Assembly (NCBI RefSeq): GCF_037042905.1
Contig: NC_087245.1
Coordinates: forward strand, 28,026,001 to 28,090,000
DNA length: 64,000 nt
Direction of reading: 5' to 3'
Source of the DNA: Lytechinus pictus
Lineage: Eukaryota
Shown here: in pieces, positions 4,342 to 64,000 of the stretch
How positions within the stretch are numbered: the stretch's first letter is position 1
Layout: each line of letters begins with the position of its first letter
Made by a program: the position numbers and the translations under genes
The notes under the pieces: model-generated
What the model was told of the DNA's origin: nothing
What the model saw: the letters and a program-made list of their open reading frames with translations, nothing else
The model's database searches: none

Positions 4342-7300
4342 ATGCATATCAGCAATTGTGGAAGAGAAACAGATCGCGTTGCACGTTTGGCTGTGCCATT
4401 TCCATCTCTCAGTCTGCAAACTCTTCACATCCGTGACAAAGGAAAAGTCATGGTCATATGTACTCTGAACAATGATGCAACATGCATTAGTGTTGGTCAT
4501 GTCATCGGAGACAGAACTGGTAGTATTGAAATAGCAAATGGTGCTTCATTATTTCTTGGTGTTTGTGGATCCTCTGGCTGTGAATATGAAGAACAAACTG
4601 AGATGGATCTTGCAGTAAACGTTATTGTTCAATATGGGGCTTACATTAAGATACCAAGCTATCTTACATTGAGAGGTGTGACCTTTGACATCTGTGGCGC
4701 AGTAGATGGTGTCCAAGATGGAAGAGTTGACATTCGGAGGGATGGTGCCTTTCTAGCAAGTTATCCTGCAAGGACTGGGCCACAAAACTCAGATGTTAGT
4801 GAGCTCGGCATTCTCAGAATAAATAATGTACATGTGTATCAAGATGGCAGATTGGATGTGTCTGATAGGTGTCCATACAACGTAAAACTCATTCTTGACT
4901 TTGCTACATTTGAAACTCTCTATGGGTCACAGTTTAACCCAGGATCATTTGAGTTGATTACAGCAACGCCATGGACAGAGCCTGTTGGAGATCCTTTAGA
5001 TGATGTTCTTTGTATGACTGATGGAAACCTAGTCTTGCTGTCTGGTCAGACCTGCTCCCTGCCTGCTGGCAGCTATGACTATCATTCCATTATGATTCAT
5101 GGTGGAGCTGTCCTCAAGATCCTAGGAAATGAAACTGGTGATAATATCACTGTGATTTCAGTCGTAGACCTTCATATCAATCCTGGAGGTCTGATTGATG
5201 GGAAAGGAGCAGGTTTGAGATTTGTTGGAGACACGCCATCACCAGAAGGGGGTAGCTATGGGGGTCATGGTGGCAATACAGAACATCCTCCATTTGGAAG
5301 TGCCATCGATCCACTGGATTATGGTTCTTATGGCTCTGGAGGTAGAGGAGGTGGGCAGCTGAAGCTTGTTATTGCGAGATGTGCAGTTATCAACGGGGAT
5401 ATCAGCATGGATGGTGGTGATTCGACTTTGCAGAACCAAGGTGCTGGAAGTGGTGGTAGTATTCTCATTCAAACACCTTGTCTTGTGGGTTATGGTACCA
5501 TTTCAAGCCGAGGAGGAAATGCATTAGCAAACTCTGGAGGTGGTGGAGGGGGAGGAGGAAGGATCTCTGTCCATTTCACAGATGATGGCAACAACTTCAT
5601 GGGTTCCTTTGAAGTTGATGGTGGACACGGTTCAGGCTCAAGTGGTACCATCTACCAGCAATCATATGATGGAGAAAGATATCTCATCTTAGCTGGGTTA
5701 ACAGATACCCCTACACCAATAACGTCAGACACGTTGAATAACATAGATCTGGTTGATATTCTGAAGGTAACAGAAGGATATCAAGTGGCATTAGACCTGA
5801 ATATTACCATAGGACAACTGGGAGGTGATTTGAGTGGTCATGTACTGCTGCCTGGTCATTCAACCATGCAATTAGATTCTGTTGAGTTTGATCACCTTGG
5901 AGCACAGTGCAGTTTTGAAATTACCGAACATGCCAGACTCATCCTTCCGCCATCAATTTTGATGCCAGGGACAGTGAATTTGGAAGGCCTGCTAGAAACA
6001 GAAGATTTCATCCTTGGGGAAGGGGCATCAGCTACTGTATCAGGTACTCTCATGGCAATATCTGTCAGATTACAAAGGAACTCATATCTCACTAGCTACG
6101 AGAATGCTACATTTGGTAGGATGGCGATACCTGGAACCATGGACATTGAAAGCCTTATCATTGACGTCAATGCCCATCTTGATCTTAGTAAAAGCTACCA
6201 AATACATGCATCAGACTTCCAAATGCATGAGTCATCAGAACTGAGTGTGAATTCAGATCGTAAGATGTTTTCCATCATCTGCGGAGATGCCTACATAGCA
6301 AGAGATGCCCAAATATCTGCTGACGCTGGTGGTCTTGGTGATGGCCCAGGAAGCCCTTCAGACCACAGATCTGGTGCAAGCCATGGCGGCGAAGGTGGTG
6401 TGTATGCAGGAATAGCAGGTGTAACCTATGGTTCTAGCACTGTTGCTTCCACGCCAGGTTGTGGAGTCAAATATGGTTCTTCAGAAGTTCGAGGAGGAGG
6501 AACAATATCTTTTGAAGTTGAATCAGATCTGATATTGGAAGGGATGCTTTCTGCAAATGGACAAGACTCTTCAGGAACTATTGGTAGTGGCTCTGGAGGA
6601 AGTATAAACATCCAGGTAAATGGTGTCTTTGAGGGTCATGGTACAATCAGATCTAATGGAGGGACAGCAAGAGGATCATCAACATCGGGTGGTGGAGGGG
6701 GTCGCATCTCTCTTTCATCAAGTATCAGTCACTTTTATGGTATAATTGAAGCTCATGGAGGTGGCGGACATTCCAATGGTGCAGCTGGTACAGTTTATGC
6801 CACAACCACTATAGGTAACTCTGGACAAAGCTCCTTGACTGTGGATAATGGTGGTATGTTAACTGTTAGTAGTACTGTATTTAATTCAAATGAGACAGAT
6901 ATTACTTTTAATGATGTTGTGTTGAGGAAATATGGAAAACTCAGATTTAACAGTTCATCACATTCCACAATCACAATTAACAATCTGCATGGAGACAATA
7001 CAGGATTACTTCAGGTTATTGATAACCAAAAACTGTTCCTTGCCAGAGATCAAGCAGTTGCAACATTTTACTACATAACATGTGCTCTTGAGGTTATGGA
7101 AAGTGCAGAGATATACCTTCCACCAAACATTTACATCTCAGAAAATATGTTTACAGAAACCTCATTTAAACTTTCCGGTCAGTTAACTGATGTAGCAAAC
7201 ATTGTTATTGGATCCAGTGCATCTATGGTTATCAGTGTCACAGCCCATTCTGCAATACTTCTGGATCGTAATGAGCTAATTATCAATCCACCAGGATCTT

Positions 7301-8359
7301 TCTCAGCTACCTCAATCCAAGTTCATGGAAACGGCCTGTTACAATTTGAGAATTCTACAGAATTATTTATCAATCTGGAATTGCTGAGTAGTTTGGAAGT
7401 CAGATACGGTGGTAAAGTGGAAAGTGGATGGCTTGAAATCAATACCCCTTCTGTTGTTGTGGAGTATGGGGGAATGATATCAAGTTCTGGTAGAGGCTTT
7501 GGACCAGGTGAAGGGCCATGCCCGGGTCAGAGTGTCTCTGGGGGTGGTTCCGGCGCTTGTCATGGTGGATCTGGTGGTTTTGCATCCAGTGGTGCAACAA
7601 CTCTTCAAAGGACAACAGGTAGTCTGTATGGCACAAGGGACTTTGGAAGTGGGGGCGGAAGTAGCGATACTGGAGCCGGTGGAGTTGGTGGTGGAGTGAT
7701 TTCTATTTCATCAGAGACTATAAGGATTGATGGAACTATTAATGCTGATGGCCAGAGTGGAAACAGGGCAGGTGGTGGAGGAAGTGGTGGTGCTATCCAC
7801 ATCATGACAGAACATTTCTCAGGATCAGGTGTTCTTAGAGCAACTGGTGGGAATGGTGGGGAAATAGCTGGTGGGGGAGGAGGAGGGGGTCGCATCGCTG
7901 CAATCCTTTCTTCTGCTAGTAAATTCAAAGGTACCTATGTTACCCATGGTGGAAGTGCCCGTGACGGCAACCAAGGAGGCTCTTCAGGCACTGCTTTGCA
8001 ACAAACTCAGATAGGAATCACAACATCTAATGAACTCTATATCAGCAATGAGGGTGCTGATTCCATTTCACCCCTTGTTACCCTGATAAACGAGACACAG
8101 AATGAACCCTTTATATTTTCCAAGTTGACACTTCTCAGTAAAGTTCGCCTGGAACTTGAGGGCGAGAATATTGAAGTCGTGATTGAGAAACTGGAGAGTG
8201 ATTCATCCTGCCAAATTCAAGTTCATGACACAATGGTACTAAGCGTGGAGAACGAGCAAGAGAGAGGTGTCTTTCATTGTAGCTTTTTGGTGGATCCTGA
8301 AGGAGAAATCAGACTACCCTCAAGTGTTGCCTTCCAGGGTGCAAGCAATCAGATATCTG
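4342..8359 (+). CDS. Exon 1 in window (internal exon): Gly-rich repeats 1-3
   Basis: Acceptor ttccccttttag ends at 4341; donor G|gtaaga at 8360; 4018-nt open frame with three GGGGGRI motifs. Confidence 0.9.
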
Positions 8360-8663: not shown

Positions 8664-8995
8664 GTACTTTAACCAACATTTTTGAGCTTGTAGTTGGTGC
8701 CCACCAGTTTCTGTCACTTTCCTCTGAGGCTCGTACTGCAGTGTACGTCGGCGGAGGCTACACTTTTATCTCCCCTCGTGGAGTGTACAGCTTGGCATCC
8801 ATCGTTATCCAGGAGCATGCTACTCTTTCTCTGTCTGGGAGGAGTGCAAACATGTCTGTAGGAAGACTTCAGGTGGACTATGGAGGAAGTCTCTCCATAC
8901 CTGAATTGTACCTGGAGGGTAACAACGTCATAGTGAATCCTGGAGGTTCTATTGATCTGACTGGAGGCAGTTTAGAAGGGCCAGGTCAGGGCATG
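8664..8995 (+). CDS. Exon 2
   Basis: Acceptor tgcag|GT ACT (phase 1, GTLTNIFELVVG); donor ATG|gtaggt (phase 0) matches the next exon. Confidence 0.85.
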
Positions 8996-9666: not shown

Positions 9667-9859
9667 GGTGGAACTGGCGGAGGTCATGGAGGTTACGGGG
9701 GATCACCCCAGGGGGAGAGCATGCTGGGAGGAGCTGCGTATGGTGATGTCATGAAACCTGACAAAGGGGGTAGCAGGGGAGGAAATGGAACCGATGGATA
9801 TGGTGGAGCTGGAGGTGGATTCTTGTCTGTTACCCTTACAGGTGTCGCAACCATAAATG
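9667..9859 (+). CDS. Exon 3
   Basis: aatag|GGTGGGHGGYGG...YGDVMKP...TIN G|gtgagt. Confidence 0.88.
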
Positions 9860-10215: not shown

Positions 10216-10396
10216 GCATGATCATAGTTGATGGGCTGCCAGGGACAGGATCAAGCGGAGGAGGAAGTGGAGGTGGTATTATCTTAGATGTTCAAGACCT
10301 GAGTGGCCATGGCTCTATTTTGGCTCGAGGAGGAAACGGGGCTGGGACTGGTGGTGGAGGTTCAGGTGGAAGGATTGCTATTCATTCTCAAAACAG
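10216..10396 (+). CDS. Exon 4
   Basis: aacag|(G)MIIVDG...GGSGGRIAIHSQN AG|gtaagc (phase 2). Confidence 0.9.
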
Positions 10397-10703: not shown

Positions 10704-10939
10704 TTTAAGCTATGCAGGATCCTATGAAACCAGAGGAGGTGGAAGCAACATCCCGAGTCCCGAGACCTACATAGGCGCAGCTGGAACTGTATATTTAGCA
10801 GATAAACTGAGTGGTATTCCAAGACACAGGATGATCATTGATGGATCTCAAAGAAGCAGCATCCCTCAGCAGGCTTTCACTATTCTGAGATCTGATCAGG
10901 GCATTCGAGATTTTGCTTTGGATTCACTAGACATTCGAG
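10704..10939 (+). CDS. Exon 5 (absent from the ORF track)
   Basis: ctgcag|T then LSYAGSYETRGG...GAAGTVYLAD...MIIDG...FALDSLDIR G|gtaaaa; supplies the GTVY segment present in every other repeat. Confidence 0.88.
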
Positions 10940-11454: not shown

Positions 11455-13332
11455 GACATGTATTCTTAGAGCTTGGTCACCCAGATTCATCTTTGAACAT
11501 TGGAACAATGTCTGGTGACAGGACAGGTACCCTGGTAGTTCGGGATCAACAATTACTGGAGGTAGATACGTTGATACCAGCCAATACATCATCTTTGACC
11601 CAGTGTAACTTTGAAGTTGGAAGAGAAGGCATCTTGACATTCCCTGGGTTGCTCTCCATTGATCAGACAACCCTGGTTGTAGCTGGAATGCTTGCTGTAG
11701 AACATGTGGCTGTAGAGGAAAATGGCAGGCTGACGTTTCTTGAAGGAGCCACCATTGTGAGCAGAAATGAGAGCAGCTTTGTACCACTTTCAGCGACAGG
11801 GGAATTCTACTTCTCATCTTTAACACTGAAACAGGGTTCAACTTTTGATCCTGCTGGAGGATTAGTTATAAGAGGTGGACTGTTCCATTTGAAGATAGGT
11901 GTTGTTTTGGATTTGGACTATCTCGAGGTCAGGACCAATGAACTCATAGTTGAAGAAGGAGCCATATTAAGTACCAGTGGTAGGAGCATGGTCAATCAAA
12001 TTCATAATATGGATGGAAGCTGTAGAGGTGGTGGCCATGGTGGTCCAGGGGGTATCGGCGATGGTCAACATCCTGCTGAGGCTATGCCATCATTTGGTAC
12101 AATATATGAGCCCTCATTGTATGGAACACGAGGAGAGGGCACTCAAGGTGGATATGGAGGTTCAGCAATTACTGTAAGTAGTGACAACATCAGGATCGAT
12201 GGTGTCCTAGAGGCTAATGGACATGACTCCGTTCATGGAGGTGGGAGTGGTGGGAGTGTGTGGGTAATTGCTCGACGTGATCTTAGTGGTAATGGTCTTA
12301 TCTCAGCCTCCGGGGGTTCCTCATCGTCACCCAGCTGTGGTAGTGGTGGAGGTGGTAGAATAGCCATACACATATTACCAAGGGCATCATACCTCTATCA
12401 TGGAACCTACAATGCTGCTGGAGGAAGTGGTAGTGGTGGATATGGTGGTCCTGGATCTATCTACTTCAAGCGGTACAAAGAGGAAGATTACACAGATGAA
12501 CTTGTGATTGACAACAGCAATGGTCAATCTCTCCTGTACTTCACCTTGAATGAAACCTGGACTGAAGGTCATCTTGACATTTTAGAACTGAACAACCATG
12601 CTCTCTTTCATCTTCCTGAAGATGGTCAGGTCAGAGAACTTGATTTAAGGAAGGTAGAAGGAGATGGCACAGGTCTTCTGCATGTCCATTCCAATCACAC
12701 TGTACTCTATGAACAGACTTTCGGTGAAAATCAGACTCACACAACTGTCAATACTAACCTTATCATTGACGATGGTGGAACAATTATTTTCTCGACTCTG
12801 ACATTCATATCAGGTAAAGGATCCGTACATACAGCTCTTGACCTTGAAGGCAGGATGCTAGGGGTACACAACCTTATCCTCACCGAAGGTCGTACCATGA
12901 AAGTGTCAAACACTGCTGTTGCGAGTACAGACATTGACAACACCACAACTCCAGGTCAGTTTACATTCGGTAGTGTTGAGCTTCATGCAGGCAGCCGATG
13001 GGAGTTTGAAACCAACATGGGATCTGTTCTTAACATGGGCTCTCTTGACGTCAAATTCGGTGCAACGATATCAGCTGACTATGTCATCGCAGAAGTGAAC
13101 TCTGTGGATGTTGAGATAGGATCTGTCATTGCTTGCTCAGGCACTGAACGACGGGAATCCTCATCAGCAGAAAGAGAGGGCATTCCATCAAGTGCAGATG
13201 CAGGTTCTGGCCATGGATCTTTCGGTGGGACTGGTCCTGATGGTGTTACTGGTGGTGGTTCCCCTTATGGATCTCTCTACTGGCCGACAAGAAGAGGTAG
13301 TGATGCCTATACTGGTGGACGAAAGGGAGGAG
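11455..13332 (+). CDS. Exon 6
   Basis: gtgcag|(G)HVFLELG...GDRTG...GRKGG G|gtaaga. Confidence 0.9.
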
Positions 13333-13736: not shown

Positions 13737-13850
13737 GCACAGTACACATCATTTCCAATGAGCTGATTATTGATGGTACTATCTCAGCCAGTGGCGCTGA
13801 GGGAGGGGCTAGCGGAGGAAGTGTCCTTGTTCAGGCATATCTTTTTATAG
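13737..13850 (+). CDS. Exon 7 (absent from the ORF track)
   Basis: ctatag|(G)TVHIISNELIIDGTISASGAEGGASGGSVLVQAYLFI G|gtgagc. Confidence 0.88.
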
Positions 13851-14307: not shown

Positions 14308-16322
14308 GGAGTGGTGAAATAGACGTGAGTGGAGGATCTGGGACTGGTGGTGGGGGAGGTGGCTCTGGGGGTCGAATTGCCGTCTACACCAACAGCACTA
14401 ATCAGTTCTATGGTTTCTACAATGCTCTTGGCGGAAGTGCTTCAAATGACCTACTGCAACCAAGGGGTGGTGGGAGTGGCACTGTGTATCTTTGGCAACC
14501 ACAGAATAGTTCTCCTTTCCAAAGTCTTCTCATTGACAACCAAAACAGACCACATTCTCAATTCGTGATGCTAGATGAAGGCAGAACGTATTATGAGTTT
14601 GATGAAATCCACCTTCCGAGGCAGTCCTCTCTTCACATCAATGAGTCGGTATCTGCAGAATTTGTGATTCACAAAGTTGTGGGAGATCGAACCGGCCTCC
14701 TCCAGTCTCATGCAGGACATATGTTTTTTGTGGAGGTTGTAGAGTCTATACCAACTATTGGGAAGACACCCGTCAACTTCATCATTGACAGCCAATCAGA
14801 AATGGTATTTGCTCCTACCCTCCATGTCCTGGGCCTTGGTGTACCCACAAGTAGTGGACGTTTAGCATCCTTAGACATGAAGGGGAGATTAACAAATGTG
14901 ATGGACCTAATTGCTAACCAGCACTCTCATATACAATATGGACAAGATGCACACACTGCAAAGCTGGAAAATGGAGAATATGTAGAGATCACTGAGCCTC
15001 TAAACTTTACCTTTGGTGCTATTCAGCTTCTGACCGATTCATCAATGTACTTTACAGCAGACTTAGGCATGCGATTCCTTGTGGCCGATCTCCATGCAAG
15101 ATATAATTCCTTCATATCTGCCGAACATATTGAGCTTGTTGCCTCCTCTGTCAACATTGAAAAGGGGGCCATCTTAACTTGTAGTGCAGGAGACAGGCCT
15201 GAAGATCTGATGTCTTCTAGTTTGGGTCAAGGTGCTCCTGCATCCTCTAATGGTGCTGGTGGCGCTGGACATGCAAATCTTGGCGGGAATGCTTGCACAG
15301 AATCTTCAGAAACTCTAGAGAGTGGAGGTGCATTCTATGGAAGTATTTACCAGGGGGAAGAGCGTGGTAGCGATGGCGGTGATGGAACAAATAGTGAGGC
15401 TGGTGGAAAAGGTGGTGGATACATGAAGATTGTGGTTGGAGATACATTTAGGCTTGATGGTGAGTTGAGAGTTGATGGCTCTAGTGGTGCCTCTGGGAGC
15501 GGAGGTGGGAGTGGAGGGTCTGTACATCTCTCTGTGACAGAGTTTGATGGTCTAGGAAGGATAACAGCTCATGGTGGGAGCGGTAGTCAATCATCTGGTG
15601 GAGGTTCTGGTGGTATCATCACTGTGTACACCACATCTGTTAACAACTATCAAGGCCTGTATGAGGCACATGGCGGTGAAGGCAACCCATCTGATGAATC
15701 GCAGAGATGCCATGGTAGTCCTGGATCTGTATTCATTCACCATCTCTTTGAAGGTTACCCACGTACAACTCTTCTCATAGATAATCAACAAAGGTCTTGG
15801 GTACATTACTTCACACTCAGAGAAGACAATATGAGGCATTACTACTTTGACGAAATTCATCTAAATAACAAAGCATCACTGCAACTTTTGGATAACGGAA
15901 TTCCGCAGACGCTGTCCGCAACCGAGCTTCTTGGCGACCAAACTGGTTTAATACATATACATGGTAACCACACCCACACATATGATGTCATTGAGGGAGA
16001 GATAACAAGCATGAAGCTTCCGGTGAATCTTAGGATTGACCCTGAAGGTGTAGCAGAGCTGGCCACCACAGTGGACGTTGTTGGCATGGGTAGTCCAGCC
16101 TTTGAATGGAACGGACAACTTCTTGGTGTAAGGCACCTGAGGATATCACCAGGCAGGGAAGTACTCATAGCTGCCAATGCTCACACTGCTCTAAAGGTAG
16201 ATGGCCAGTACATTCAATTGGACAATCCTGGTACGTTCCACTTCTCAAGTCTGGAGTTTGGATCACAGACGTCCATCAGTTTTCCACCGCCACTTGGAGT
16301 TACCTTTACTGTTGGATTTTTG
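14308..16322 (+). CDS. Exon 8
   Basis: ttatag|(G)SGEIDVSGG...FTVGFL|gtaagt (phase 0). Confidence 0.9.
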
Positions 16323-16373
16323 GTAAGTGTATTCTCTCTCCAGCTTATGTTGTTGTTTTTTATTTTGATTATA

Positions 16374-25830: not shown

Positions 25831-26011
25831 GATATAAAATGGGCCTCAGTCTTCAGTGCTGAGTATTTCAACATCACATCTTCAGACTTCAACCTTGAGA
25901 TTGAAGCCACCTTAGATTGCTCTGGACGAGGCCTGGAGAATGGCAGTCCAGGAAGAGGTCTGATGCCAGGTTCAGGGGCAGGCCATGCAACAACAGGAGG
26001 CTCTTGTACAT
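25831..26011 (+). CDS. Exon 9
   Basis: atgcag|DIKWASVFSAEY continues FL| of exon 8 (compare SLDVKFGATISADY in exon 6). Donor T|gtaggt; a weaker in-phase alternative lies 6 nt upstream. Confidence 0.82.
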
Positions 26012-26403: not shown

Positions 26404-26631
26404 CTACTGACTGTGAAGGTGGCTCTGTGTATGGATCTCTTTATGAACCTGTTGATGCTGGATCCAGAGGTGGAGCTGACAATTCAGGAAACCCTGGTCC
26501 ACGTGGAGGAGGGCACATCCGTATCCGGGTGGGATATATCTTCCAGTTGGATGGCATCTTAGATGCAGATGGACTTTCTGGATCTAATCGTGCAGGGGGA
26601 GCCAGTGGTGGAGCCATATGGATTACAACAG
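26404..26631 (+). CDS. Exon 10
   Basis: ctatag|..TDCEGGSVYGSLYEP...GGAIWITT G|gtgaat. Confidence 0.85.
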
Positions 26632-27049: not shown

Positions 27050-27411
27050 ATCACTTGAGAGGCCATGGTCGTGCACGGGCTTTAGGAGGATTGGGAGACC
27101 ACTCCTCTGGTGGAGGGGCAGGAGGGCGCATCGCTGTTCACATTGGAGGCACCGACGAGTATAGGGGTGCATTGGTCGCCCTCGGTGCAGCTGGTGGTGG
27201 ACATGGAGGGGATCATGGAGGCACTGGCACAGTATACGTGGAGGAGTACAGGAATGGAACAGCCAGGACCAGGCTCTATTTGGATGGCCAAGGATTTTCT
27301 CCAGCCAAAGATTTCATCCTGACGGAGACCAACCCTAGAATCCTTTATGAGGGCCTTCCCATCCACAGTGGTGCTCCTTTCGCTTTTGATGAAGTCACTT
27401 TGCAGGGAGGG
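27050..27411 (+). CDS. Exon 11
   Basis: ttgcag|(D)HLRGHG...GGAGGRIAVH...FDEVTLQGG|gtaagg. Confidence 0.9.
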
Positions 27412-44200: not shown

Positions 44201-44551
44201 CAAAATGGCACTGAACAACCAGTCAACAGTGGAAACTGCATATGTGATGCCTGTTTTGCAGGTATGGGGTGTAATGCTGAATGTTCCGGAAACGGCCAAT
44301 GCCTCACCAACCCTGAGAGTGGACTTCTCCAATGCTCTTGCATCACAAGATGGCGAGGAGATCTCTGTAATGTGCCAGGCTGTCCTGGTGATGGGGAAGA
44401 CTGTACTGGACATGGTGACTGTAATACAGGTGTTGGGCAGTGCTTCTGCTACCCAGGCTGGATTGGAGAGGGATGTGATGTGCCAGACTGTCCAGGAGAA
44501 CCTGACTGCAATGGGCATGGTGAATGTGCAGTACCATCCGATTCTCAACCA
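41294..44551 (+). CDS. Exon 18: last Gly-rich repeat, then the start of the EGF array
   Basis: tttcag|GSEGSIG...; EGF modules (CxxHGxC...CxCxxGWxGxxC) from about 42370; donor CCA|gtaagt. Confidence 0.92.
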
Positions 44552-44977: not shown

Positions 44978-45347
44978 ATCTGCATTTGTGAAAACGGCTT
45001 CTTTGGAAGTGATTGTGATTTCTTTTGCATGGAAGGTGAGGTGCAGGATGAGCACACTTGCAAATGTGACAAATGCTATACTGGATTTGAGTGTAACGTT
45101 GAGTGCTCTGGCAATGGAATTTGTAGATCTGGCGAGTGCGATTGCTCCAGCAATGCACTTCAGTCTATTCTTGGAATTCAGTCTTTTCTGGGACCACTTT
45201 GTGAGTTCAGAGGATGCCCTGGAGATGATGGTTCCTGCAACGGTCAGGGATCCTGCAACGTTGACAGCCAAGAATGCACCTGTTACCCGGGCTGGACTGG
45301 AGAGGACTGCAATGAGCCGGATTGCCCAGGAGTTCCCAGCTGCTCTG
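44978..45347 (+). CDS. Exon 19 (EGF repeats)
   Basis: cccag|ICICENGFFGSDC...PSCS G|gtacgt. Confidence 0.9.
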
Positions 45348-45982: not shown

Positions 45983-46169
45983 GAAACGGTGTATGTGAGA
46001 ATAGACAGCCAAGGCGATGTTCCTGCGATGAAGAATGGACTGGTGAAGCTTGCAGCATCTCCTGTGTCCATGGCAAGAATATTGATGGATCACGATGTGT
46101 CTGTGACCCATGCTACACAGGGCTTGGCTGTACAGAGATATGCAGTGGCAATGGCCAGTGTAATGACGG
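45983..46169 (+). CDS. Exon 20 (EGF; correct frame not in the ORF track)
   Basis: ttacag|(G)NGVCENRQPRRCSCDEEWTGEAC...QCND GG|gtagga (phase 2). Confidence 0.88.
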
Positions 46170-46474: not shown

Positions 46475-47373
46475 AACTTGCATATGTGACTTTAAGAGTG
46501 GTTTCCGAGGTGACCACTGTCAGATAAATGGCTGTCCAGGAAATAAAACAGACTGCAGTGGTCATGGATCATGTAATACTGGAAGCTGGGAGTGTCTCTG
46601 TGATCCTGGTTGGCAAGATATTGGATGCCAAATTCCAGATTGTCCAGGAACTCCAGATTGCTCTGGACATGGTGATTGTCCTTTACCTGCATCTGAGGAG
46701 AATCCTATTTGCCATTGTGAGGATACTTTCATGGGCCATGCTTGTGAGTTCAGATGCTTCCATGGACACCCCTCTTTGCTTAACATGACATGGGTCTGTG
46801 AATGTGAAGCATGTTACAGTGGCGTGGATTGCAGTTCTTTGTGCAACAATCAAAGCAATGTATGTGATAATGGGATCTGTGATTGTGGATTTGATGGATG
46901 GAGGGGAGACGTCTGTGACAGGCAAGGTTGCCCAGGAGAAGGAACAGACTGTAGCAACCATGGACAATGCAATCTTGCTGATCGCTCCTGTTCGTGCAAC
47001 CCTGGTTGGACAGGAATAGGATGCCACATCCCAGACTGTCCTGGAGAACCTGATGACTGCAATGGCCGTGGTGTCTGTCATCCCGAGGATCCATCTCCTC
47101 GTTGCATCAACTGCAGTGCTGGTTGGATGGGAGCTGCATGTGAGGTTCCTTGTGTGAACGGAACCCAAAACCCACCTAATTCAGGCATCTGTGATTGCCA
47201 GCCTTGCTTTCATGGAATAAGTTGTGACAGCCGTTGCTCTGGTATTGGTGTGTGCTCCAGTAATGGTACCTGTGACTGCATTTATGCTGCTGGGAAGGGA
47301 GCATTCTGTGAGATCCCAGGCTGTCCTGGAGTATTTGACCTTGATTGCTCTGGAAGAGGATCATGTCTCGAAG
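46475..47373 (+). CDS. Exon 21 (EGF repeats)
   Basis: ttttag|A TCICD...GSCLE G|gtgtgt. Confidence 0.9.
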
Positions 47374-47889: not shown

Positions 47890-48063
47890 GAGAGTGTTTG
47901 TGCAACCAGGGTTGGACTGGTGTTGGTTGCGAGATAGCAGACTGTCCTGGAGATCCTGACTGTAATGATAGAGGAGTTTGCTTCTCTGAGCTTGATGTCC
48001 CTGAATGTCGAAGCTGTGCTACAGGATGGATGGGCGAGGCTTGTGAGGTACCCTGTGGTCCAG
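47890..48063 (+). CDS. Exon 22 (EGF repeats)
   Basis: ctgcag|(G)ECLCNQGW...PCGP G|gtatgt. Confidence 0.9.
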
Positions 48064-48940: not shown

Positions 48941-49453
48941 ACCATGGCATCCAGTTTCCAATGGACAGTGGAGTATGTAAGTGTACAGACCCTTGCTGGC
49001 ATGGAGTTAGCTGTCATGACCTTTGTAGTGGTCAAGGATTCTGTACCCAGGAGGGAAACAGCCACTGTGAATGCCAACCTAGCTATTGGGGAGAGTTCTG
49101 TGAAATAGCAAGTTGCCATGGCGATGGCCGCCCATGCTCGGGGCATGGCGTTTGTCAACCAGACAGAACGTGCATGTGTGAGAGCAGCTGGTTAGGACAA
49201 GGATGTGAACTCCCTGTCTGCATCAACGACTGCAACGGATACGGCTTCTGCGATGGTTCCAGTGGCATTCCGGTGTGCCAGTGCGATGAGAACCACTTTG
49301 GACTGGATTGTGGGTATGACTGTGTGAATGGTACGGTCTTCAATGAAACCTGTGTATGCGATCCATGTTCCTCTGGCCCCTTCTGTGATCAGGAATGTGC
49401 TGGTCATGGCATATGTATGGATGACACATGTCATTGTGATCAGGCATGGTGGG
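48941..49453 (+). CDS. Exon 23 (EGF repeats)
   Basis: ccacag|(D)HGIQFPMDSG...DQAWW G|gtgagg. Confidence 0.9.
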
Positions 49454-50072: not shown

Positions 50073-50234
50073 GTACTGATTGCAGTTACCGTGGCTGTCC
50101 AGGTGATGGAACCAACTGCACTGGACATGGCTACTGCGATGCTCTTCGTCAACAATGCAGCTGTATGTTAGGATGGAAGGACCAAGGCTGTAATGTTCCT
50201 GATTGCATTGGAGAACCTGACTGCGGAGGAAGGG
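50073..50234 (+). CDS. Exon 24 (EGF repeats)
   Basis: tatcag|(G)TDCSYRGCPG...DCGGR G|gtaatt. Confidence 0.9.
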
Positions 50235-50663: not shown

Positions 50664-51053
50664 GTTACTGCAATGGATCTTATGACCCATTACCGCAATG
50701 TGATTGCTACAATGGATGGATAGGAGAAGCTTGTGAGGTCCCATGCATCAATGGAACTCAAGACCCATTAGACCCTAACCGTTGCATCTGTCACCATTGC
50801 TTTGGTGGGTTGAGCTGTGATGTGGAATGCAACAACAGAGGGAGCTGTTCGGAGAGTGAAGGCTGTGCATGTGACCCATTCTTTAAGGGGGAGCTTTGCA
50901 ATGAGTTTGATTGTCCAGGAGAACCAGATTGCTCAGATCGAGGTTCTTGCCTCTTTAGAGATGGAGAAGCATTCTGTCTCTGTGATCCTGGATTTACATC
51001 AGAAAACTGTAGTGAACTGGTGTGTCCTGGACAGCCTCAGTGCTCAGGCTTTG
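50664..51053 (+). CDS. Exon 25 (EGF repeats)
   Basis: ttctag|(G)YCNGS...QCSGF G|gtgaga. Confidence 0.9.
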
Positions 51054-51503: not shown

Positions 51504-51800
51504 GAACTTGTACATTGATAGATGATACGCCCCTTTGTATCTGTCAACATGGCTTTGATGGCGATGCTTGTCAGACATGCCGCCCTCGGTTTACCGGAGA
51601 CACCTGCGACCGTTGCATTGAAGGATACATCGGTTACAACACCAGCTGCAGTATCTACTGTCTTCATGGCTATGCTTCCGATCCTGGAGGAGATGAATGT
51701 CAGTGCTATGATGATGATGAACATGGCCACTGGAGTGGACAGAGCTGTCTCCAGTGCAAGAATGGATTTGCTCTGCCAGACTGCCAACAGTGTGAAAGAA
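51504..51800 (+). CDS. Exon 26 (EGF / laminin-EGF-like)
   Basis: atttag|(G)TCTLID...CQQCER A|gtatgg. Confidence 0.87.
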
Positions 51801-54604: not shown

Positions 54605-54884
54605 ACTATGTTGGAGATTGTAGCATCAGTTGTATAGAGGGCCAAGGTACCTATTCTGACCCTATGGATGGGTTAGGAGGAGAGGGAGCCCTCCAACCAT
54701 TCTTGCAGTGCCTTACGCCCCAAAACGAAACGTCAGATGGAATTGCCTGGTTTGGTTACAGGAACCTGAATACTCACAATGTGTACCTTCCAATTGGTCC
54801 TGCCAATCACTTTGATTTTGATGATTATGGTGGTCAACCCACCAAGTTCAAACCAGGTCTCCACTACAGCTCCGTACGAATTAC
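54605..54884 (+). CDS. Exon 27: start of a non-EGF beta domain
   Basis: cctaag|(N)YVGDCSISC...LQPFLQCL...AWFGYRN...GQPTKFKPG...VRI AC|gtaagt. Confidence 0.87.
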
Positions 54885-55748: not shown

Positions 55749-55878
55749 GTTCAATGACAAGGTATCAGCAACATGGTTCCTGTCTTATAGTCCTTCAAAC
55801 AGTCAATTCAGAGAGACTGCTTCAGAGGCCAACAGCACTGTCCGTCTATGCACATCACGGGATGAAGAGATAGCTCTT
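55749..55878 (+). CDS. Exon 28
   Basis: tttcag|G FNDKVSATWFLS...ASEANSTVRLC...IAL|gtaagt. Confidence 0.87.
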
Positions 55879-57177: not shown

Positions 57178-60100
57178 GAGAATCAGCTGGAATCAGCCAA
57201 TGACAGCCACTGCATTTGCAACCATGGGTATTGGGGCCCAGCTTGCCAGAATGAGTGCATTGGGGGATCAGACAATCCTTGCTTTGGTAATGGCATCTGC
57301 AATTCAAACTCCGGACTGTGTCATTGTGAAGATTCTGTCGATCAAATGTCAGCTAACTGTACCTTGTGTTCAGAGGGAAGATTTGGAATAGATTGCTCCG
57401 TGGCATCAAGTAGCCTCATAGAAGATGTGAATGGGATGCGGTATGCAGCTGCATATGGCCCGGGGCACTTCACAACATTTGATGGATCGTCTTATACTTA
57501 CCGGGGAGAGGGAGAGCATTACTTGATCAACAGTTCCATTGAGCTACAAGTTAGACTTGTGCCCTGTAGACAAGGGAAACCAGCAACTTGTATCAACGCA
57601 GTGGCATTCTCTGCAGGAAATGGAAGAATCGTTGCCATCCATGGTGGTTACACGGATAATGATGTCCAGTTCGTGACTTGGATTGATGGAGAAGAGCAAA
57701 GTATCGATTCGGACCTGCTTGGCAACGGCTTTTTGATCACCCGCCTTTCTTACGACCATTTCTTGATTTCCAAAGATGACTTCATGGACATCAGTGTATA
57801 CATCAGAGGGCGCTATATCAGTGTATTTGTCAAAACCACTGGTGCTGCATGTAGCGAACTGCATGGACTCCTGAGTTCATGCAATGGAAATCCATATGAT
57901 GACTTTGTCCTATCTAATGGAAACCACCTTTACTTAGACAGGATCAGTTCATATTCCTTGAGTCAAGACAGCATTCATCATATATTCGGACCCTCTTGGA
58001 AAGTTAGAGATTCTTCACTTCTGTCATCAATCTACCTGCATGGCAATTATCAACAAGTATACGATATTGAGGGTTCAGATGCTGGATATGCCATGTTTTT
58101 CGAGGATTCCTCCTTGAAATCAACCTCCCCTATCAATTCATTTACAGGACCTGATGTCACATTTGAACTGGATTTGAAGCTTGCTGAAGTGTCTCAAGAG
58201 TGCAAGGCTGTTTTCTCCTACTATCTGTCGGATACATCAGGACTGCTGTTGTGTGATGGTTATCTTACAATTTCAGTTGAAACCAGTCAAGTTGCTACTT
58301 TCAATATCAAGCTTGAGGTTGATACATGGTATCAGATCTCTATTCTTTGGCTTCAGTCTGTTAAAAGGCTTCAGGTGTATGCCATATCAGACTCCACTTT
58401 CCAATCTGATGTTTTTGTTGTTGATGGAAGCCTATCCAACTTCCTTGATCCCGGTGGAATCTTAGTGTTTGGTCAGTGGCAGCTGCCGTCAGGTTACTCC
58501 GGGCCATTTCTGTACAGAGGCTTCTCAGGTTGGCTCGATGAAATTAAGATCTGGAACTCTTACTATTTTGAGAATGATGTGAGATCACATTATGGTGTTA
58601 CTGCTGATATGTCAGATTCTGCTCTATCTAGTTACTTTGTACTGAACGAAGGTCAAGGGTCAGTGATTAAGGATTCAAAGTCGATCATGACGTTAATGAT
58701 ACTTCCAGAAATATGGAATCCCCCAAGGTGGCAGTTCTCCTCTGCTACTGTACATAGATCCACTGTGGCAACATTAAGAAGTATTTATTATCCTTCTTGG
58801 TCTAATCAATTAGCCCATGACGAGGCAGCAGTCTTGTGCTCTAGGATAATAAGTGATACTCCTCTATCACCATTTAGTGTTTGTTCAGATCTAGAAATGG
58901 TAGAATACTATGCATATCTTTGTTCCGCAGATTCTGCACTACACGATACATCATCATATTCTATGGAAGTTATCCTTGCATACTCCCAACATTGCAGATC
59001 TATTCTCAACTTAATGCAGTCTCCTGAACAGTCATATTGCAATGACTTTCCAGGGAGACGCTTTCCTGATTGGACAGGTCCAGGATGCAATATTCCGTGT
59101 AAGTCTGGAGTTGGTCCTAGCTCCTGTTCCTGCTATAGTGGATATTGGGGTGAAGCATGTGAGCACAGCTGCCCAGGAGGTGATGGATCTCTTGCTTGTG
59201 GTGGTGTGGGTGTTTGTCTATCAGATAATGGTACGTGTGACTGCCCTCTATCCTTTGATTCATCCTCGGATTGTTCCTCATGCACTCCTGGGTGGTCTGG
59301 GCTGGATTGCTCTGTGACTACTGTCAATAGTACAAACATACTCCAGCCCGTCTGTGCAATGTTTGGCTTTGGGCATATAATAACCTTTGATGGACTTTCA
59401 TTGTCACTAGATATTCCTGGTGAATACCAATTAGCCAGTGTTGGCGACATTGATGTCTATATCAGACACACACCATCTCCATGGTTTGACCTATCATGCA
59501 GCATAACCTCAGTTTGGTTGAAGCTCTCAGACACCAGCTTAACCTTTCAGGCTTCTTTTTCAGATGAAGGTTCTGTGAGGGTGTATTTGGATGATGATCT
59601 CTTAACTCCATCCGGAGACATGACACTTCCTTCTGGTCACATCCTCCTGATATCCTATGATGGCTATATAGTACATGATAACCAGACTACTGTGGCTATC
59701 ATCAGTCATCTGACATATTTTGACATCCAGGTGACCACACGATTTGAGATTTGCAGGAACTCATCCAGACCCTTGATCAGTGGAAACTGTGACAGTGACC
59801 CATCCAATGACCTTCGCATCAGTAAGGATGAATTCATAGATCCAGTAGATATAACTTATGAGAAGGTAAATGGGCCTTGGGCAAAATACATCAGACTAGC
59901 TCCAGAAAGTTCAACCAAGTTTGTCTACCACCATCCTAATCGTATAGATGCACAAGATTTGACTCCAGGCGGTTATGGCTTATACTTCAATGACTCAAGC
60001 TGCATTAGCGATCAACTCCAGGATGATATTTTCAGTGTAGAAGAAGATATGACTATTGAACTCCTCTTCTTTCCTATTGGTTCTACCTCTGGTTGCTTAT

Positions 60101-63100
60101 TTTCTTATCTCAATGGAAACTCTTTCTTTGCTTTAACTATCGATATAACTCTTCAAATCTATGTCTCTACTTCTTTGAACATTGACACAGGAATTATCAT
60201 TCACCCAGATCATTGGAACTTTTTATCCTTTGTTTATCACAGAGAGAGTGGAGGATGTACAATTGTTTATGTAGGTAAGAACACTATAAGTGGATGGTCA
60301 TTTATTGTAGGAAGGGGATACTTCTTTCCAGGAGGCAGTGTAGCAGTAGGTACCTGGCAAAGTTCAGATTATGAATATCCATATGAAACTGGATATCATG
60401 GTTACATAGATGAACTACGTATTTGGAAGAGAAATTTTGACATCACAACAACGTGGAGTAATACAAATCTTAACATTCAGGCTGGTATTCCTGGGCTTGT
60501 TGCTCTGTGGAAGTTTGATGAAGGAAATGGAGTAAAAGCAGTAGACATTGTAAGCCTCACCCAACTCCAGTTTTCAAGTGATAGAGGACCTTTCTTTGCT
60601 CTATGTGGTGCACCAATAGATTCAATTCCAAAATCATTTCACTACTTTGAAGTTTACGACAGATACCCAAGTTCAGAGTCAAGAAAAGAAGCATTGGACA
60701 TTTGTACTGAGGTAGTTTTAGATAAATACTTGATTGATGGATGCAGTCAGTTGGGTAGATCTGTTTCTTTGTTTTTCCTGCAGAATTGTTTCTATGACTC
60801 CTCACATATGTCAGATAATCAACTTGCATATGTGAATGCTCGTATCTACTCAGCTTACTGTGGATCAGTTCTCGATCTGGAAGTGTCACCAAAGATGGAA
60901 TTATGCGATAAAGCTCGTGGAAACCCAGATGTTTTCCTTGCGCTTGGATGCACTGATATTGGTTCTTGCAAGTTTGGGTATTTTGATGTTGCTACAGCAG
61001 AGTGTGTTTGCCTAGAAGGCTACTGGGGTTCATACTGTTCAAATATCTGTCCTGGTGGACATGAAAACCCATGTAACAGGAAAGGGTACTGTGATAAATA
61101 CACAGGAGTCTGTCATTGTCCATTGACATGGTCATCAGAGAGTAACTGTACAAAATGTGAAAGTGCATGGTCTGGGGAAAACTGTGATGTTGCACTGCCT
61201 GTGCCAGATATTGAAACTAACAATAAAACCTGTGGTGTTTTTGGCCAGGGTCACATCTTGAACTTTGATGGTGCATATTTTGATTTTAAGGAGTTTGGGG
61301 AGTATGTGCTACTGTTTGACAAAGATTCTTCTTTCTCTATTCAAGCACGAATCATTCCTTGCTACAATTTTTCATCCTGTGTCTCGGCAGTAGCTGTGTC
61401 CAATAGCTCGCATACATTCATCATTCGATCAGGATATACATCTCAAAGCAAACCACTCTTCTGGTTTGCTGGAGAGCAGATAGAGCTGAATAATTTAGAA
61501 GAAACTGTTGGACATGTTGTTGTGAGACATATGTCGAATTTTGAATACCACCTGATAGCTCTTGACCAAACCTGGACAGCCCAGATACGTATCGTTGACC
61601 GTTATCTCAACATCTTAATAAATATGGCAAGAGAATGTACTGCATTATCAGGTATCTGTGGGTCTTGTGATAACAATGTAACAAACGACATCTTCCCAGT
61701 CCATGAAGGAAAGCTGCTCTGGCAGAATCGTGGAAGATCATTGTTTTCGCCCTTGTTTGAGTCAACTTCATATAATGAATTAGAAGTCAGTGTTGGAAGT
61801 GGTTATACTTTAACCTTTGATGACACATTCCTTCAGTCAGAAAATCTGGATCTTGATTTACAGGGGTCAGTTTCATTTGAGCTCTACTTTCGAACCAAAA
61901 CTAACCATGGTGTTCTAATGTCCTTTGGAGCAAGACGTACCTTCTCCATGTACCTAGATACGACACTACAGATTATTGTTGGCACAGCTCATTTTGATAC
62001 AAATGTAGTTCCTTTCATAGACTGGAACCATCTTGTTTTAGTAATTAAGCCTTCCGATCAACAAGATGTATTTTCACTAAGATTGGCATTGATTGATTCT
62101 GATGGTCTCACCAAAACTTGGGAAATAACCATTACTGAAAATATCTTTGTCTCAAGCTTCTATATTGTCTTTGGTCAATGGCTGCCAGGTGAGGATACTT
62201 ACATTCCATCCCCTGTATCTCGTCCATTCCGTGGTTCCATTGACGAGTTTTACATCTGGAAGAAGGAGCTTTTGGTAACAGAGGTTCTTGCAAGATTGGG
62301 CAGTAGTGTACTTCCTGGCCCAGCAGACCTTGTGGCTCTCTGGAAGTTTGATGAAGGTCAAGGGAACACGGCAACAGATTTGGTTAACCAAAAACAGTTC
62401 ATGATAAGGCAGTACTCATGGAATGTAAGAACGCCCATATGGCAGTTTTCATCAGCTCCTATCAGCTTGTACTCTCCAACATATATTTTGCATAATCCTT
62501 CTGAGTGGTTTCAGTCCTGTGTGGAATTGTTTGCGACGATCAGTTCCACTTGTCATTCCGTCTCAGATCAGATAGATGTTTATCTAGTTGCATGTGCAAG
62601 GGACTATGCTTTGTCCAATTCTGAGTATGCAAGACTTGGGGTACTCCTTTCGTATGCAGACGTATGCCATCTGAATTCAGAATCTACACTGAGTTGGCCT
62701 GCACAGGATCTTTGCAATTCCTTTGATGTTTATTTTCCTCTTTGGTATGGACCATCTTGTGAATCAAAGTGTTACTTCTCATTAGACACTGATTCACCAA
62801 TATCAAACTGCACATGTTCTCCGGGAACTTGGGGAATTGAATGTGATTCATCCTGTGTAGGAGGTGTGGGGTCACATTGCAATGGCCATGGCACATGTTC
62901 TCCTGCTAGTGGATCTTGTCAATGTGAGTCTAACTGGATGGGCAGCAGTTGCGATGTGTGTAGTCAAGGATGGTTCGGAAGTGACTGTTCCCTAACCGCC
63001 AGTAGAACCCCTGACATACCTCTGTCAAGGTGCTCCATGTACATCAATGGACATATCACTATGTTTGATGGTTCTGTCTTTGAATTTTCAGATACCAGTG

Positions 63101-64000
63101 ATATGGTTTTCTTCTCTTCCTCAGATATTGAGATTCAAATAAGGCAGATTCCTTGCAACGGTTTGCCATCATGCATCACAGCAGTATCATTTGCCACTGG
63201 CACAAGTCACATGCTTTTATCTGCTCCTCATTTGCAACAATCGGATCCAGTCATCTTGCTGAACAATGTCACACTGCCATTGGAAACTGAGCTATTTGTG
63301 GGATCTACTGGTTTTTCTCTTATCAGGGTTGCGGTTGGTCACTTTGAAATAAATGGACCAAATAACTTTAAGTTCAAGATATTAAGTCCCGGAGCTTACT
63401 TCAATTTAGAGGTTTTACAAACAAATTGCATCTTCTCTTCTGGACTTTGTGGTCCCTGTCAAGTAATGGCCACATCATGTGGTGATTCTCAAGCTCTGTG
63501 TGCAATCAATAATCTCGGCTTTGTTGCTTATGCATCACTCTACCCATTAAGCTTTTCATTATCACAACAATACGGTGCCAGCTATGTGAGATATGGACCT
63601 TCAAGTTTAATATATACACAGCTGTTGGCAGCATCTCAAGCTACCTATATCCCAGTCTTTGGGAGCCCTTCAGGTTATGCCTTACAGTTCTATGAAGACG
63701 GAATCATGAGTGATCCACTACCAAGTTTTTTCTCTGCTGGACGAACCACCACACTTCAATGGTATTGCAAATTCACAGATATTCCTGGGGGTACCTTGTT
63801 TTCTGCTTCAGAGAGCAAATCATTAGCGGTAACAGTAGGAGATGATGGTAACTTCTGGATTCATGCAGGATTCGAGTCCCAAACAACAGGCATCATTGCT
63901 CCACAGAATGACTGGTTATTTATCATGGTATCATACTCCTCAGATGATGGACAGATTGTCTTCTATTGCGTCAAGTCATCTGGTGCAGTGTATAAAGCTT
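57178..64000 (+). CDS. Exon 29 (>6.8 kb, runs off the window): at least 4 EGF-VWD-LamG/pentraxin-C8-like units
   Basis: caacag|ENQLES...; I translated all 2274 codons and found no stop. VWD starts: GPGHFTTFDG, GFGHIITFDG, GQGHILNFDG, INGHITMFDG. LamG motifs: FSGWLDEIKIWN, YHGYIDELRIWK, FRGSIDEFYIWK. Confidence 0.92.

What the first reader, a model, noticed from the sequence alone, without database searches (positions are those of the whole stretch)
4342..64000. A single spliced ORF of more than 10,200 aa, still open at both ends: a megadalton extracellular protein with an unfamiliar architecture
Seen: 29 exons join in phase into 30,625 nt with no stop. The first exon starts mid-repeat right after an acceptor and has no signal peptide; the last runs off the window. 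Order: ~15 Gly-rich units, ~50-55 EGFs, a bacterial-like domain, then [EGF-VWD-LamG-C8]x4 or more. Known: I recognise no named protein with this combination; tenascin has FN3 and fibrinogen domains, teneurin has NHL/YD repeats, and mucins/FCGBP have VWD-C8-TIL. Inference: a very long filamentous matrix, adhesive or mucus-type protein. This is the best candidate for an undescribed system in the window.
Basis: partly seen in the sequence, partly recalled or inferred. Interest (0 to 1): 0.88.

Follow-up and report, generated by a model that had tools for sequence, protein, structure and literature searches.

The report
Giant conserved cell-surface filament protein
The window holds the middle of one very large gene whose roughly 21,000-amino-acid product looks like a membrane-anchored rod on the cell surface; corals, molluscs, worms and echinoderms carry it with its repeats in the same order, yet I found no description of it.

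Summary
Confirmed and larger than reported. The 29 exons join into 30,625 nt (10,208 aa) with no stop. Extending both ways gives one single-copy gene model of 116 exons over 212 kb: 21,089 aa, 2.24 MDa, with an N-terminal signal-like segment and a C-terminal transmembrane helix. Order: Gly unit, F5/8C-like domain, 30 more ~410-aa Gly units, ~53 EGF-like modules, a ~140-aa unnamed domain, 9 x [EGF-VWD-LamG-C8-like], TM, tail. The Gly unit has no Pfam family and no solved relative by sequence. AlphaFold2 (pLDDT 91-94) folds it as a beta-helix like bacterial and fungal adhesins, with ordered glycine loops resembling polyproline-II bundles. Clam, coral, scallop, snail and sea-star proteins match the units one by one in order, including across both long introns. 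Assembled contigs from three public runs break at predicted splice sites, but no full-length transcript was seen. Databases hold it only as split 'uncharacterized' or 'Tenascin-X' entries; it fails tenascin, teneurin, mucin and Dumpy membership. Best reading: a fixed-length, non-enzymatic surface tether or adhesin filament of roughly 0.4-0.5 um. Function and location are inferred, not shown.

The parts
4342..8359 (+). Exon 83 of 116 (window exon 1), aa 7365-8703: Gly/beta-helix units 17-19 and start of 20. Joined in phase 0 to an upstream exon ending at G000:C1:28,015,821; 82 predicted upstream exons reach the ATG and signal-like segment at C1:27,891,926
   Evidence: a clam protein runs across this join in unit register
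8664..8995 (+). window exon 2, unit 20
   Evidence: an X11 contig piece spans 8663-8994 with 44 letters going on elsewhere
9667..9859 (+). window exon 3, unit 20
10216..10396 (+). window exon 4, unit 20
10704..10939 (+). window exon 5, units 20/21
   Evidence: covered by contigs of the same depth as those on exon 6 (table 3)
11455..13332 (+). window exon 6, units 21-22
   Evidence: contig pieces of X1 and X11 begin at 11453
13737..13850 (+). window exon 7, unit 22
14308..16322 (+). window exon 8, end of unit 22, unit 23, start of 24
   Evidence: X1 and X11 pieces end at 16323 and continue on sequence not in the intron part laid; two unnamed ORFs stop aligning at this same donor
25831..26011 (+). 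window exon 9, unit 24
   Evidence: coral and clam proteins run through the 8/9 join
26404..26631 (+). window exon 10, unit 24
27050..27411 (+). window exon 11, units 24/25
28193..28553 (+). window exon 12, unit 25
29246..29536 (+). window exon 13, unit 25
30108..36296 (+). window exon 14, aa 10828-12890: units 26-29 and start of 30, the best conserved units
   Evidence: AlphaFold2 model of 31814-34303
36798..36913 (+). window exon 15, unit 30
39463..39613 (+). window exon 16, unit 30
40067..40362 (+). window exon 17, units 30/31
41294..44551 (+). window exon 18: unit 31 and, in the same exon, the start of the EGF array
   Evidence: (EGF_TEN, EGF_2)
44978..45347 (+). window exon 19, EGF array
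45983..46169 (+). window exon 20, EGF array
46475..47373 (+). window exon 21, EGF array
47890..48063 (+). window exon 22, EGF array
48941..49453 (+). window exon 23, EGF array
50073..50234 (+). window exon 24, EGF array
50664..51053 (+). window exon 25, EGF array
51504..51800 (+). window exon 26, end of EGF array
54605..54884 (+). window exon 27, unnamed ~140-aa domain between the EGF array and the first VWD
   Evidence: found in hemichordate, coral, scallop and snail proteins; no family hit
55749..55878 (+). window exon 28, end of the unnamed domain
57178..64000 (+). window exon 29 (continues to 65049): EGF-VWD-LamG-C8-like modules 1-4. Five further exons carry modules 5-9, the TM helix, the tail and the stop at window-equivalent 77951

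Best explanation
One gene makes a ~21,100-aa type I membrane glycoprotein that stands out from the cell surface as a long, mostly stiff filament of fixed length. From the membrane outward: nine EGF-VWD-LamG-C8-like modules (stalk), about 53 EGF-like modules (spacer), then 31 beta-helix units, each carrying a glycine bundle on one side, with an F5/8C-like domain near the tip. It most likely acts mechanically, as a tether or adhesin that links the apical membrane of ciliated or microvillar epithelia to a neighbouring surface, to apical matrix or to copies of itself, with each unit holding a set place along the rod. Shown: reading frame, domain order, TM, single copy, unit-by-unit conservation. 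Predicted: the unit fold. Inferred: one transcript end to end, rod length of about 0.4-0.5 um (standard geometry from memory, not measured), apical location and tether role.
For: Model of 116 exons, 21,089 aa, only the terminal stop. The two most hydrophobic 19-aa stretches are aa 20,970 (3.46) and aa 38 (2.03). A hydrophobic helix follows the last module in 14 of 14 homologues examined. All matches in the genome lie at this locus (24 of 24; 10 of 10). With glycines masked, homologue units best-match model units in order: clam 11 of 12 (units 15-26, crossing both long introns), coral 7 of 8 (24-30), scallop 5 of 5, sea star 10 of 10, snail 3 of 3. Single alignments: coral XP_015752845 to aa 10,298-15,016 at 43%; Ptychodera XP_070533132 to 14,697-20,958 at 35%; an unnamed 7,665-aa ORF on a 23.8-kb contig to 13,323-20,962 at 32%. 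AlphaFold2 pLDDT 91 for two units and 94 for a half unit. Top folds are adhesin beta-helices: EtpA Z 15.2 (rmsd 4.4, 259 aligned), HMW1 Z 15.0, Candida Awp3b Z 13.7; the half unit also matches a polyproline-II bundle, 7JJV Z 7.7 (rmsd 3.4, 113 of 126). The best-conserved unit positions are mostly glycine, with no obvious catalytic set. Tails vary from 57 to 432 aa, with a class I PDZ-type end in 9 of 26 distinct tails.
Against: No location, binding or mechanical data. No junction was read with both partners: the joint table showed 15 rows (67 more not shown), all from repeats or spurious, and the raw-read run X13 had depth of at most 0.16 in the exon bins before the intron repeats. Several small upstream exons are prediction only. 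No single homologue covers the full length. A shared beta-helix fold does not show adhesion: polysaccharide lyases and phage tailspikes score Z 8-10. This protein's own tail has no PDZ-type end. In one BLAST setting the clam protein's top alignment was out of register.
Confidence: 0.55

Rival explanations
1. A giant glycan-binding capture or endocytic receptor, megalin/cubilin-like in role (recalled), in which F5/8C, LamG and beta-helix grooves bind particles, microbes or dissolved glycoproteins and the tail drives uptake.
For: F5/8C-like domain near the tip; nine LamG domains; FxNPxY/F in 5 of 26 tails and NPxW in 3 of 26; many named hosts are aquatic suspension or deposit feeders (general knowledge).
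Against: Those motifs sit in about 3 related groups of tails and are absent from this protein. The gutless tubeworm Lamellibrachia (gutless: recalled) keeps both ends. A fixed 31-unit register is not needed for uptake.
Confidence: 0.2
2. A mechanosensory or inter-ciliary link or coat of sensory cells, like PKHD1L1, USH2A or VLGR1 in hair bundles (recalled).
For: Fixed length and PDZ-type tail ends; G8 hits in sea-star and hemichordate orthologues; TMEM2 ectodomain among weak fold matches, Z 5.3; low, sample-dependent coverage.
Against: No cell-type data; no IPT/TIG, cadherin, FN3 or Calx-beta hit in the exons scanned.
Confidence: 0.13
3. Two or more adjacent genes: an upstream secreted Gly-unit protein and a downstream membrane protein, as most public annotations split it.
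For: Public models are 0.6-6.8k-aa pieces. The exon style differs, with many small exons upstream and few huge ones here. The 14.5-kb intron before 4342 is filled with mobile elements. A start-like cap motif recurs at about aa 7,587.
Against: No stop or second signal segment in the chain; the splice sites at the link are strong and in phase; one clam model crosses both long introns in unit register; a 2,917-nt contig carries 1,859 letters beyond donor 16322; snail pieces from both halves carry nearby locus tags on a contig of the same length.
Confidence: 0.08
4. A membrane-bound polysaccharide-degrading enzyme array (lyase or tailspike-like beta-helices).
For: Lyases, epimerases and tailspikes appear among fold matches at Z 8-10.
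Against: They rank below adhesins; conserved positions are mostly glycine; no enzyme family hit.
Confidence: 0.04

Closest known systems
Drosophila Dumpy
   Same: Huge EGF-rich protein with a C-terminal TM that attaches the apical surface to cuticle (PMC2930355, passages)
   Different: No ZP domain and far fewer EGFs; 60% of the length is beta-helix/glycine units; VWD-LamG stalk. Dumpy's PIGSFEAST repeats evolve in concert, whereas these units keep separate identities
Two-partner-secretion and fungal beta-helix adhesins (EtpA, HMW1, FHA, Candida Awp)
   Same: Predicted fold of the unit, Z 12-15; Z 9-10 at rmsd about 2 for the half unit
   Different: No sequence match; added glycine bundle; animal type I membrane protein; tandem array of 31
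Glycine-rich polyproline-II bundles (springtail antifreeze 7JJV, phage S16 gp38 6F45, ALK/LTK)
   Same: Glycine segments ordered (pLDDT >90) without helix or strand; matches 7JJV Z 7.7 and 6F45 Z 5.7
   Different: Grafted on a beta-helix and repeated 31 times; not among the proteins named in the part of 10.1101/2023.11.25.568672 that I read (parts 1-2 of 4; its Table 1 is an image)
VWD-C8-TIL proteins (gel mucins, FCGBP, alpha-tectorin, otogelin, zonadhesin; definitions recalled)
   Same: Tandem VWD with a C8-like helical Cys domain
   Different: LamG lies between VWD and the C8-like part; EGFs instead of TIL; no GDPH; no PTS region
Tenascin-X and teneurin (automatic database labels)
   Same: Teneurin/tenascin-type EGF repeats (EGF_TEN)
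   Different: No FN3, fibrinogen globe, NHL or YD hit in the exons scanned; C-terminal TM
PKHD1L1/fibrocystin and TMEM2 (recalled)
   Same: Large single-pass proteins with G8 and beta-helix; G8 hits in two orthologues
   Different: No IPT/TIG; five times longer; glycine bundles, EGF array and VWD-LamG stalk
Bacterial giant surface proteins and Myxococcus AgmC N-terminal domain (NF047640)
   Same: The Gly half of the unit recurs in tandem in unnamed and bacterial proteins; AgmC_N hits two such unnamed proteins below cut-off and 4 of 11 half units weakly, best E 0.0019
   Different: They mostly lack the first half of the unit and carry Ig, RHS or carboxypeptidase-like domains; direction of any transfer not tested

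Membership tests
Tenascin | Tenascin-type EGF array | tested here: met
   EGF_TEN and EGF_2 hits
Tenascin | FN3 repeats and C-terminal fibrinogen globe; secreted | tested here: not met
   No such Pfam hit in about 13,200 of 21,089 aa scanned; the C-terminus is a TM plus tail
Teneurin | N-terminal type II TM, 8 EGFs, NHL and YD shell | tested here: not met
   TM is C-terminal, about 53 EGFs, no NHL/YD hit in exons scanned
VWD-C8-TIL proteins (mucins, FCGBP, tectorin) | VWD domains | tested here: met
   PF00094 E 6.5e-30 and 5.8e-22; nine modules align
VWD-C8-TIL proteins (mucins, FCGBP, tectorin) | C8 domain | tested here: inconclusive
   1 of 4 regions, E 0.0025, below cut-off
VWD-C8-TIL proteins (mucins, FCGBP, tectorin) | TIL after C8; GDPH site or PTS region | tested here: not met
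   No TIL hit; 0 GDPH and no 100-aa window above 40% S/T/P
Dumpy | ZP domain before the TM; more than 300 EGF/DPY modules | tested here: not met
   Last exon has VWD/LamG/EGF only; about 53 EGFs in the array
PKHD1L1/fibrocystin/TMEM2 | G8 domain | tested here: inconclusive
   Hits in sea-star (E 1.7e-7) and hemichordate (E 0.0024) orthologues, none in this protein's scanned exons
PKHD1L1/fibrocystin/TMEM2 | IPT/TIG repeats or GG domains | tested here: not met
   No hit in the exons scanned; small upstream exons were not scanned
Beta-helix adhesins (works-like) | Parallel beta-helix fold | tested here: met
   AlphaFold2 plus VIA-align Z 15.2; predicted, not solved
Beta-helix adhesins (works-like) | Binds a cell, glycan or matrix ligand | not testable with these tools
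   needs a binding assay
Gly-rich polyproline-II bundle domains | Packed antiparallel PPII helices of glycine | tested here: inconclusive
Type I membrane protein | N-terminal signal and single C-terminal TM | tested here: met
   Hydropathy only, no signal-peptide predictor; TM in 14 of 14 homologues; signal-like starts in hemichordate and choanoflagellate homologues read by eye

The most novel reading that the evidence does not exclude
This is the structural filament of the glycocalyx mesh or links on ciliated collar-type cells (flagellar vane, barbs or inter-microvillar mesh). It would be inherited from the common ancestor of animals and choanoflagellates, built by stringing a bacterial-type beta-helix/glycine-bundle adhesin domain into a 31-unit ruler, and lost in lineages without such cells. 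For: Salpingoeca PTSG_13037 shows the same N-terminal order (Gly half unit, F5/8C, long plain beta region, units); the named animal hosts have ciliated epithelia; vane and barb composition is unknown and vane filaments are about 3.5 nm wide (PMC9671500, passages). Against: the vane resisted proteinase K and extends beyond 1.2-3 um; barbs are only about 50 nm (same paper); the choanoflagellate model is partial and its unit register is ambiguous; absence from vertebrates, arthropods and nematodes was not properly tested.
Probability: 0.12. Interest if true: 0.92.

Novelty: new variant of a known kind. Interest (0 to 1): 0.72.

Why it matters
It would be among the longest single-pass membrane proteins known (comparison recalled), shared by cnidarians and bilaterians, and missed because gene callers cut it into pieces labelled 'uncharacterized' or 'Tenascin-X'. 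About 13,000 of its residues are a repeat with no Pfam family and no solved relative, predicted to combine a beta-helix with a glycine bundle. Each repeat has kept its own identity and position, shown here for units 24-30 across the coral-bilaterian split, which points to a structure built to a set length. That gives a concrete candidate for uncharacterised surface filaments of ciliated marine epithelia, testable by antibody, cryo-ET and knock-out, and a correctable annotation error across many invertebrate genomes.

Tried and rejected
Literature: searches for the architecture or accession numbers gave no paper describing it (0 papers; 1, 6, 1, 1, 1 listed, none about it by listing or abstract; PMC7853314 passages read, not relevant). 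The library is open-access only and supplements were not searched, so a proteome table or subscription paper could name a piece of it. Earlier scan notes: nothing. Solved structures by sequence: 0. Foldseek: no match at E <= 0.001; ALK/LTK was not among the 50 rows shown, which does not exclude it. Pfam and NCBIfam for the unit: none. Run finder: no RNA holder on record. Read laying: joint and loose-end tables were swamped by intron repeats, so no junction partner was read; X13 had almost no exon reads. Atlas: the unit's nearest clusters are unnamed (0.95; recognition below the reliable level); the unnamed domain gave only 0.78. A word-index search with the C-terminal part found only 2 proteins, while the full HMMER search found 550. 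My per-exon support statistic used only top alignments and is uninformative for 14 of the 16 exons it flagged; not used. One overlapping spurious exon was dropped before the count of 116; transposon, microsatellite and low-complexity stretches were masked by hand. Rejected: pseudogene or repeat artefact (open frame, 16 of 26 listed exon differences at third codon positions; conserved orthologues); collagen-like reading (no run of 6 GXY); calcium-binding EGFs (consensus absent); a conserved signalling tail.
Full report
OBSERVATION. The window is G000:C1:28,026,001-28,090,000 of an 812-Mb genome. The host is an animal, probably an echinoderm: the closest named relatives are sea cucumber at 59% and sea star at 53%; this is inference. 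From stop-free frames, codon scores and candidate splice sites I rebuilt 29 exons, all AG/GT, 30,625 nt, 10,208 aa, no stop. A chain search trained on these exons returned the same 29, a consistency check only.

CLOSING THE ENDS. I read 300 kb upstream and 100 kb downstream. The same Gly-rich units continue upstream for about 107 kb and end in a first exon at C1:27,891,926 with a hydrophobic segment at aa 38-56. Downstream the VWD modules continue through five more exons to a strongly hydrophobic helix at aa 20,970, a roughly 100-aa tail and a stop. The model has 116 exons (82 upstream, 29 here, 5 downstream), 63,270 nt, 21,089 aa, 2.24 MDa and 206 N-glycosylation sequons, and spans 212 kb. 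Upstream exons were predicted with a bonus for homologue matches; a few small ones may be wrong, so the length is good to a few hundred residues. A HECT-domain gene lies upstream and a HYR-repeat gene downstream, bounding the locus. It is single copy: 24 of 24 and 10 of 10 genome matches fall here (only the best candidates are scored).

ONE GENE? The two weak points are the 14.5-kb intron before 4342 and the 9.5-kb intron 16323-25830. At the first, donor and acceptor score among the strongest, both in phase 0, and the repeat motif runs on across it. With glycines masked, the 12 units of clam protein ACF0H5_010636 best-match model units 15-26 in order in 11 of 12 cases (the miss has the expected unit second), crossing both introns; coral units match 24-30 in order (7 of 8), scallop 27-31 (5 of 5), sea star 3-12 (10 of 10), snail 13-15 (3 of 3). 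These are predicted proteins, not cDNAs. In another BLAST setting the clam's top alignment was out of register, as repeats allow. Coral XP_015752845 joins units, EGFs and the first VWD module; Ptychodera XP_070533132 covers aa 14,697-20,958; an unnamed 7,665-aa unbroken ORF on a 23.8-kb contig covers 13,323-20,962 in one alignment, probably a transcript since the gene has introns here (inference).

EXPRESSION. Four runs were laid on 4200-24199. Three contig sets (RNA status guessed or unknown) cover exon bins at depth up to about 14. Listed pieces begin at 11453 (two runs), end at 16323 (two runs), span 8663-8994, and begin at 14299, where the end of exon 7 and the intron end share 9 letters. 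One 2,917-nt contig has 1,859 letters beyond donor 16322; exons 9-13 sum to 1,423, so it could reach exon 14, but those letters were not shown. No joint with both partners was displayed, nothing bears directly on the join at 4342, and the one raw-read RNA run had almost no exon reads. Of the 26 exonic differences listed, 16 fall at third codon positions. So the gene is probably spliced and expressed at a low level in some samples; a full-length transcript is not shown.

ANATOMY. A profile of seven window units finds 33 segments that merge to 31 units, 15 in the window. After unit 1 comes an F5/8C-like domain (Pfam hit in the hemichordate orthologue; match to model aa 313-366, E 5.5e-4) and about 500 aa of plain beta-type sequence. 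About 53 EGF-like modules follow unit 31, starting within the same exon, mostly in groups of four. Then come a ~140-aa unnamed domain conserved in coral, scallop, snail and hemichordate, and nine EGF-VWD-LamG-C8-like modules 17-29% identical to each other. C8 is a weak match only.

THE UNIT. It has no Pfam, NCBIfam or PDB sequence match, yet relatives at 45-56% are common (131 hits, 120 listed, mostly unnamed; named ones are molluscs, sea cucumber and coral). AlphaFold2 gives pLDDT 91 and pTM 0.82 for two units and 94 and 0.90 for the Gly half: nearly all strands, with long ordered glycine segments that are neither helix nor strand. Foldseek finds nothing at E <= 0.001. VIA-align ranks beta-helix adhesins first (EtpA Z 15.2, HMW1 15.0, Awp3b 13.7), and for the half unit EtpA Z 9.6 at rmsd 1.8, then the springtail polyproline-II bundle 7JJV at rank 5 (Z 7.7, 113 of 126 residues) and phage gp38 tips at Z 5.7 and 5.2. 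I read this as a beta-helix carrying a glycine PPII bundle; I could not inspect the coordinates, and Z under 8 is weak alone. The Gly half recurs in tandem in giant bacterial and stramenopile proteins, and 4 of 11 half units weakly hit Myxococcus AgmC_N. Salpingoeca PTSG_13037 shows the N-terminal order of this protein and its residues 2818-3011 best match the unit 2/3 boundary region, but its later units map weakly to 20-22, so it is a likely but partial orthologue. No named vertebrate, arthropod or nematode appeared among the listed hits; most hits are unnamed, so this is weak.

MECHANISM. A signal segment and one TM put about 20,900 residues outside the cell. Stacked beta-helix units, EGF runs and disulphide-rich modules suggest an extended rod; using recalled geometry (0.48 nm per coil, about 15 coils per unit, about 2.5 nm per EGF, 8-10 nm per module) it would be about 0.4-0.5 um. 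Each unit resembles its counterpart in distant animals more than its neighbours, so position matters, as in a link or lattice, unlike freely expanding mucin repeats. The TM is conserved in 14 of 14 homologues, whereas tails differ in length and sequence; 9 of 26 end in a class I PDZ-type motif and 5 of 26 carry FxNPxY/F, both counts inflated by near-identical records, some tails possibly truncated, and this protein has neither. I therefore favour a structural tether or adhesin (0.55) over a capture receptor (0.2), a sensory link (0.13), split genes (0.08) or an enzyme (0.04).

COMPARISON AND NOVELTY. It works like Dumpy or PKHD1L1-type giant surface proteins but fails membership of tenascin, teneurin, VWD-C8-TIL, Dumpy and fibrocystin families on tested features; about 62% of the model was scanned against Pfam. 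Papers seen: PMC2930355 (passages), PMC9671500 (passages), 10.1101/2023.11.25.568672 (parts 1-2 of 4), PMC7853314 (passages); others as listings only. Eight searches aimed at this protein found no description; subscription papers and supplements were not searched. Definitions of tenascin, teneurin, mucins, PKHD1L1, USH2A, VLGR1 and megalin are recalled.

VERDICT. Real, ancient and apparently undescribed: a new variant of the giant single-pass surface filament, built largely from an unclassified repeat. Interest 0.72.

Noticed in passing
window 1-3900: GC-richer stretch inside the intron before exon 4342; a dispersed repeat with many copies at 85-95% identity on several contigs (74 matches), with no long ORF here. 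Element class not determined.
   Followed up: partly
L021:256-1994 (about 8.0-9.7 kb upstream of the window): Tc1/mariner transposase ORF (339 aa, HTH plus DDE) lying within a 793-bp inverted duplication at 99.5% identity.
   Followed up: partly
L021:3048-5522: LINE-type endonuclease/reverse transcriptase ORF of 824 aa in the same intron.
   Followed up: partly
window 4016-4159 and L021 near 2410-2553: 145-bp inverted repeat pair (94%) about 11.5 kb apart, enclosing the LINE and the 1-3900 repeat; could be the ends of a larger insertion.
   Followed up: no
window about 4980-5170 (model aa 7,577-7,640): A Cys-containing cap motif like the protein's own N-terminus recurs in the middle of unit 17 and is conserved in the clam; possibly a joint in the rod or a trace of an old fusion.
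   Followed up: partly
upstream exons at model aa about 3,750-3,920, 4,760-4,900 and 6,065-6,120: Inserts between units: two related ~150-aa beta-type domains, discoidin-like by eye, and one furin-like Cys-rich segment; no family test run on them.
   Followed up: partly
L022-L026 (about 259-297 kb upstream): Same-strand gene with a HECT domain, UBR5-like by recalled motifs.
   Followed up: partly
L009-L011 (about 140-155 kb in window-equivalent coordinates): Same-strand gene with HYR repeats and SEA-like exons by eye; another surface or matrix protein next door.
   Followed up: partly
window 38102-39065 and 53077-53939: Intronic tandem array (144/284-bp period) and a long CT-rich tract.
   Followed up: no
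window 16350-17500 and 22300-23300: Intronic repeats with very high read and contig depth in all four runs.
   Followed up: no
P0366, P0367, P0005, P0006 (unnamed JGI records): Long unbroken ORFs with parts of this architecture: EGF plus unnamed domain plus VWD-C8 without LamG, or Gly units plus LamG plus EGF; may be non-animal relatives.
   Followed up: partly
P0007 (Salpingoeca PTSG_13037): Annotated as a ribosomal oxygenase because a JmjC domain sits at its N-terminus; possibly a fused gene model.
   Followed up: no
model aa 6109, 13709, 14099, 14361, 14493: Five RGD triplets, four in the EGF array; conservation not checked.
   Followed up: no
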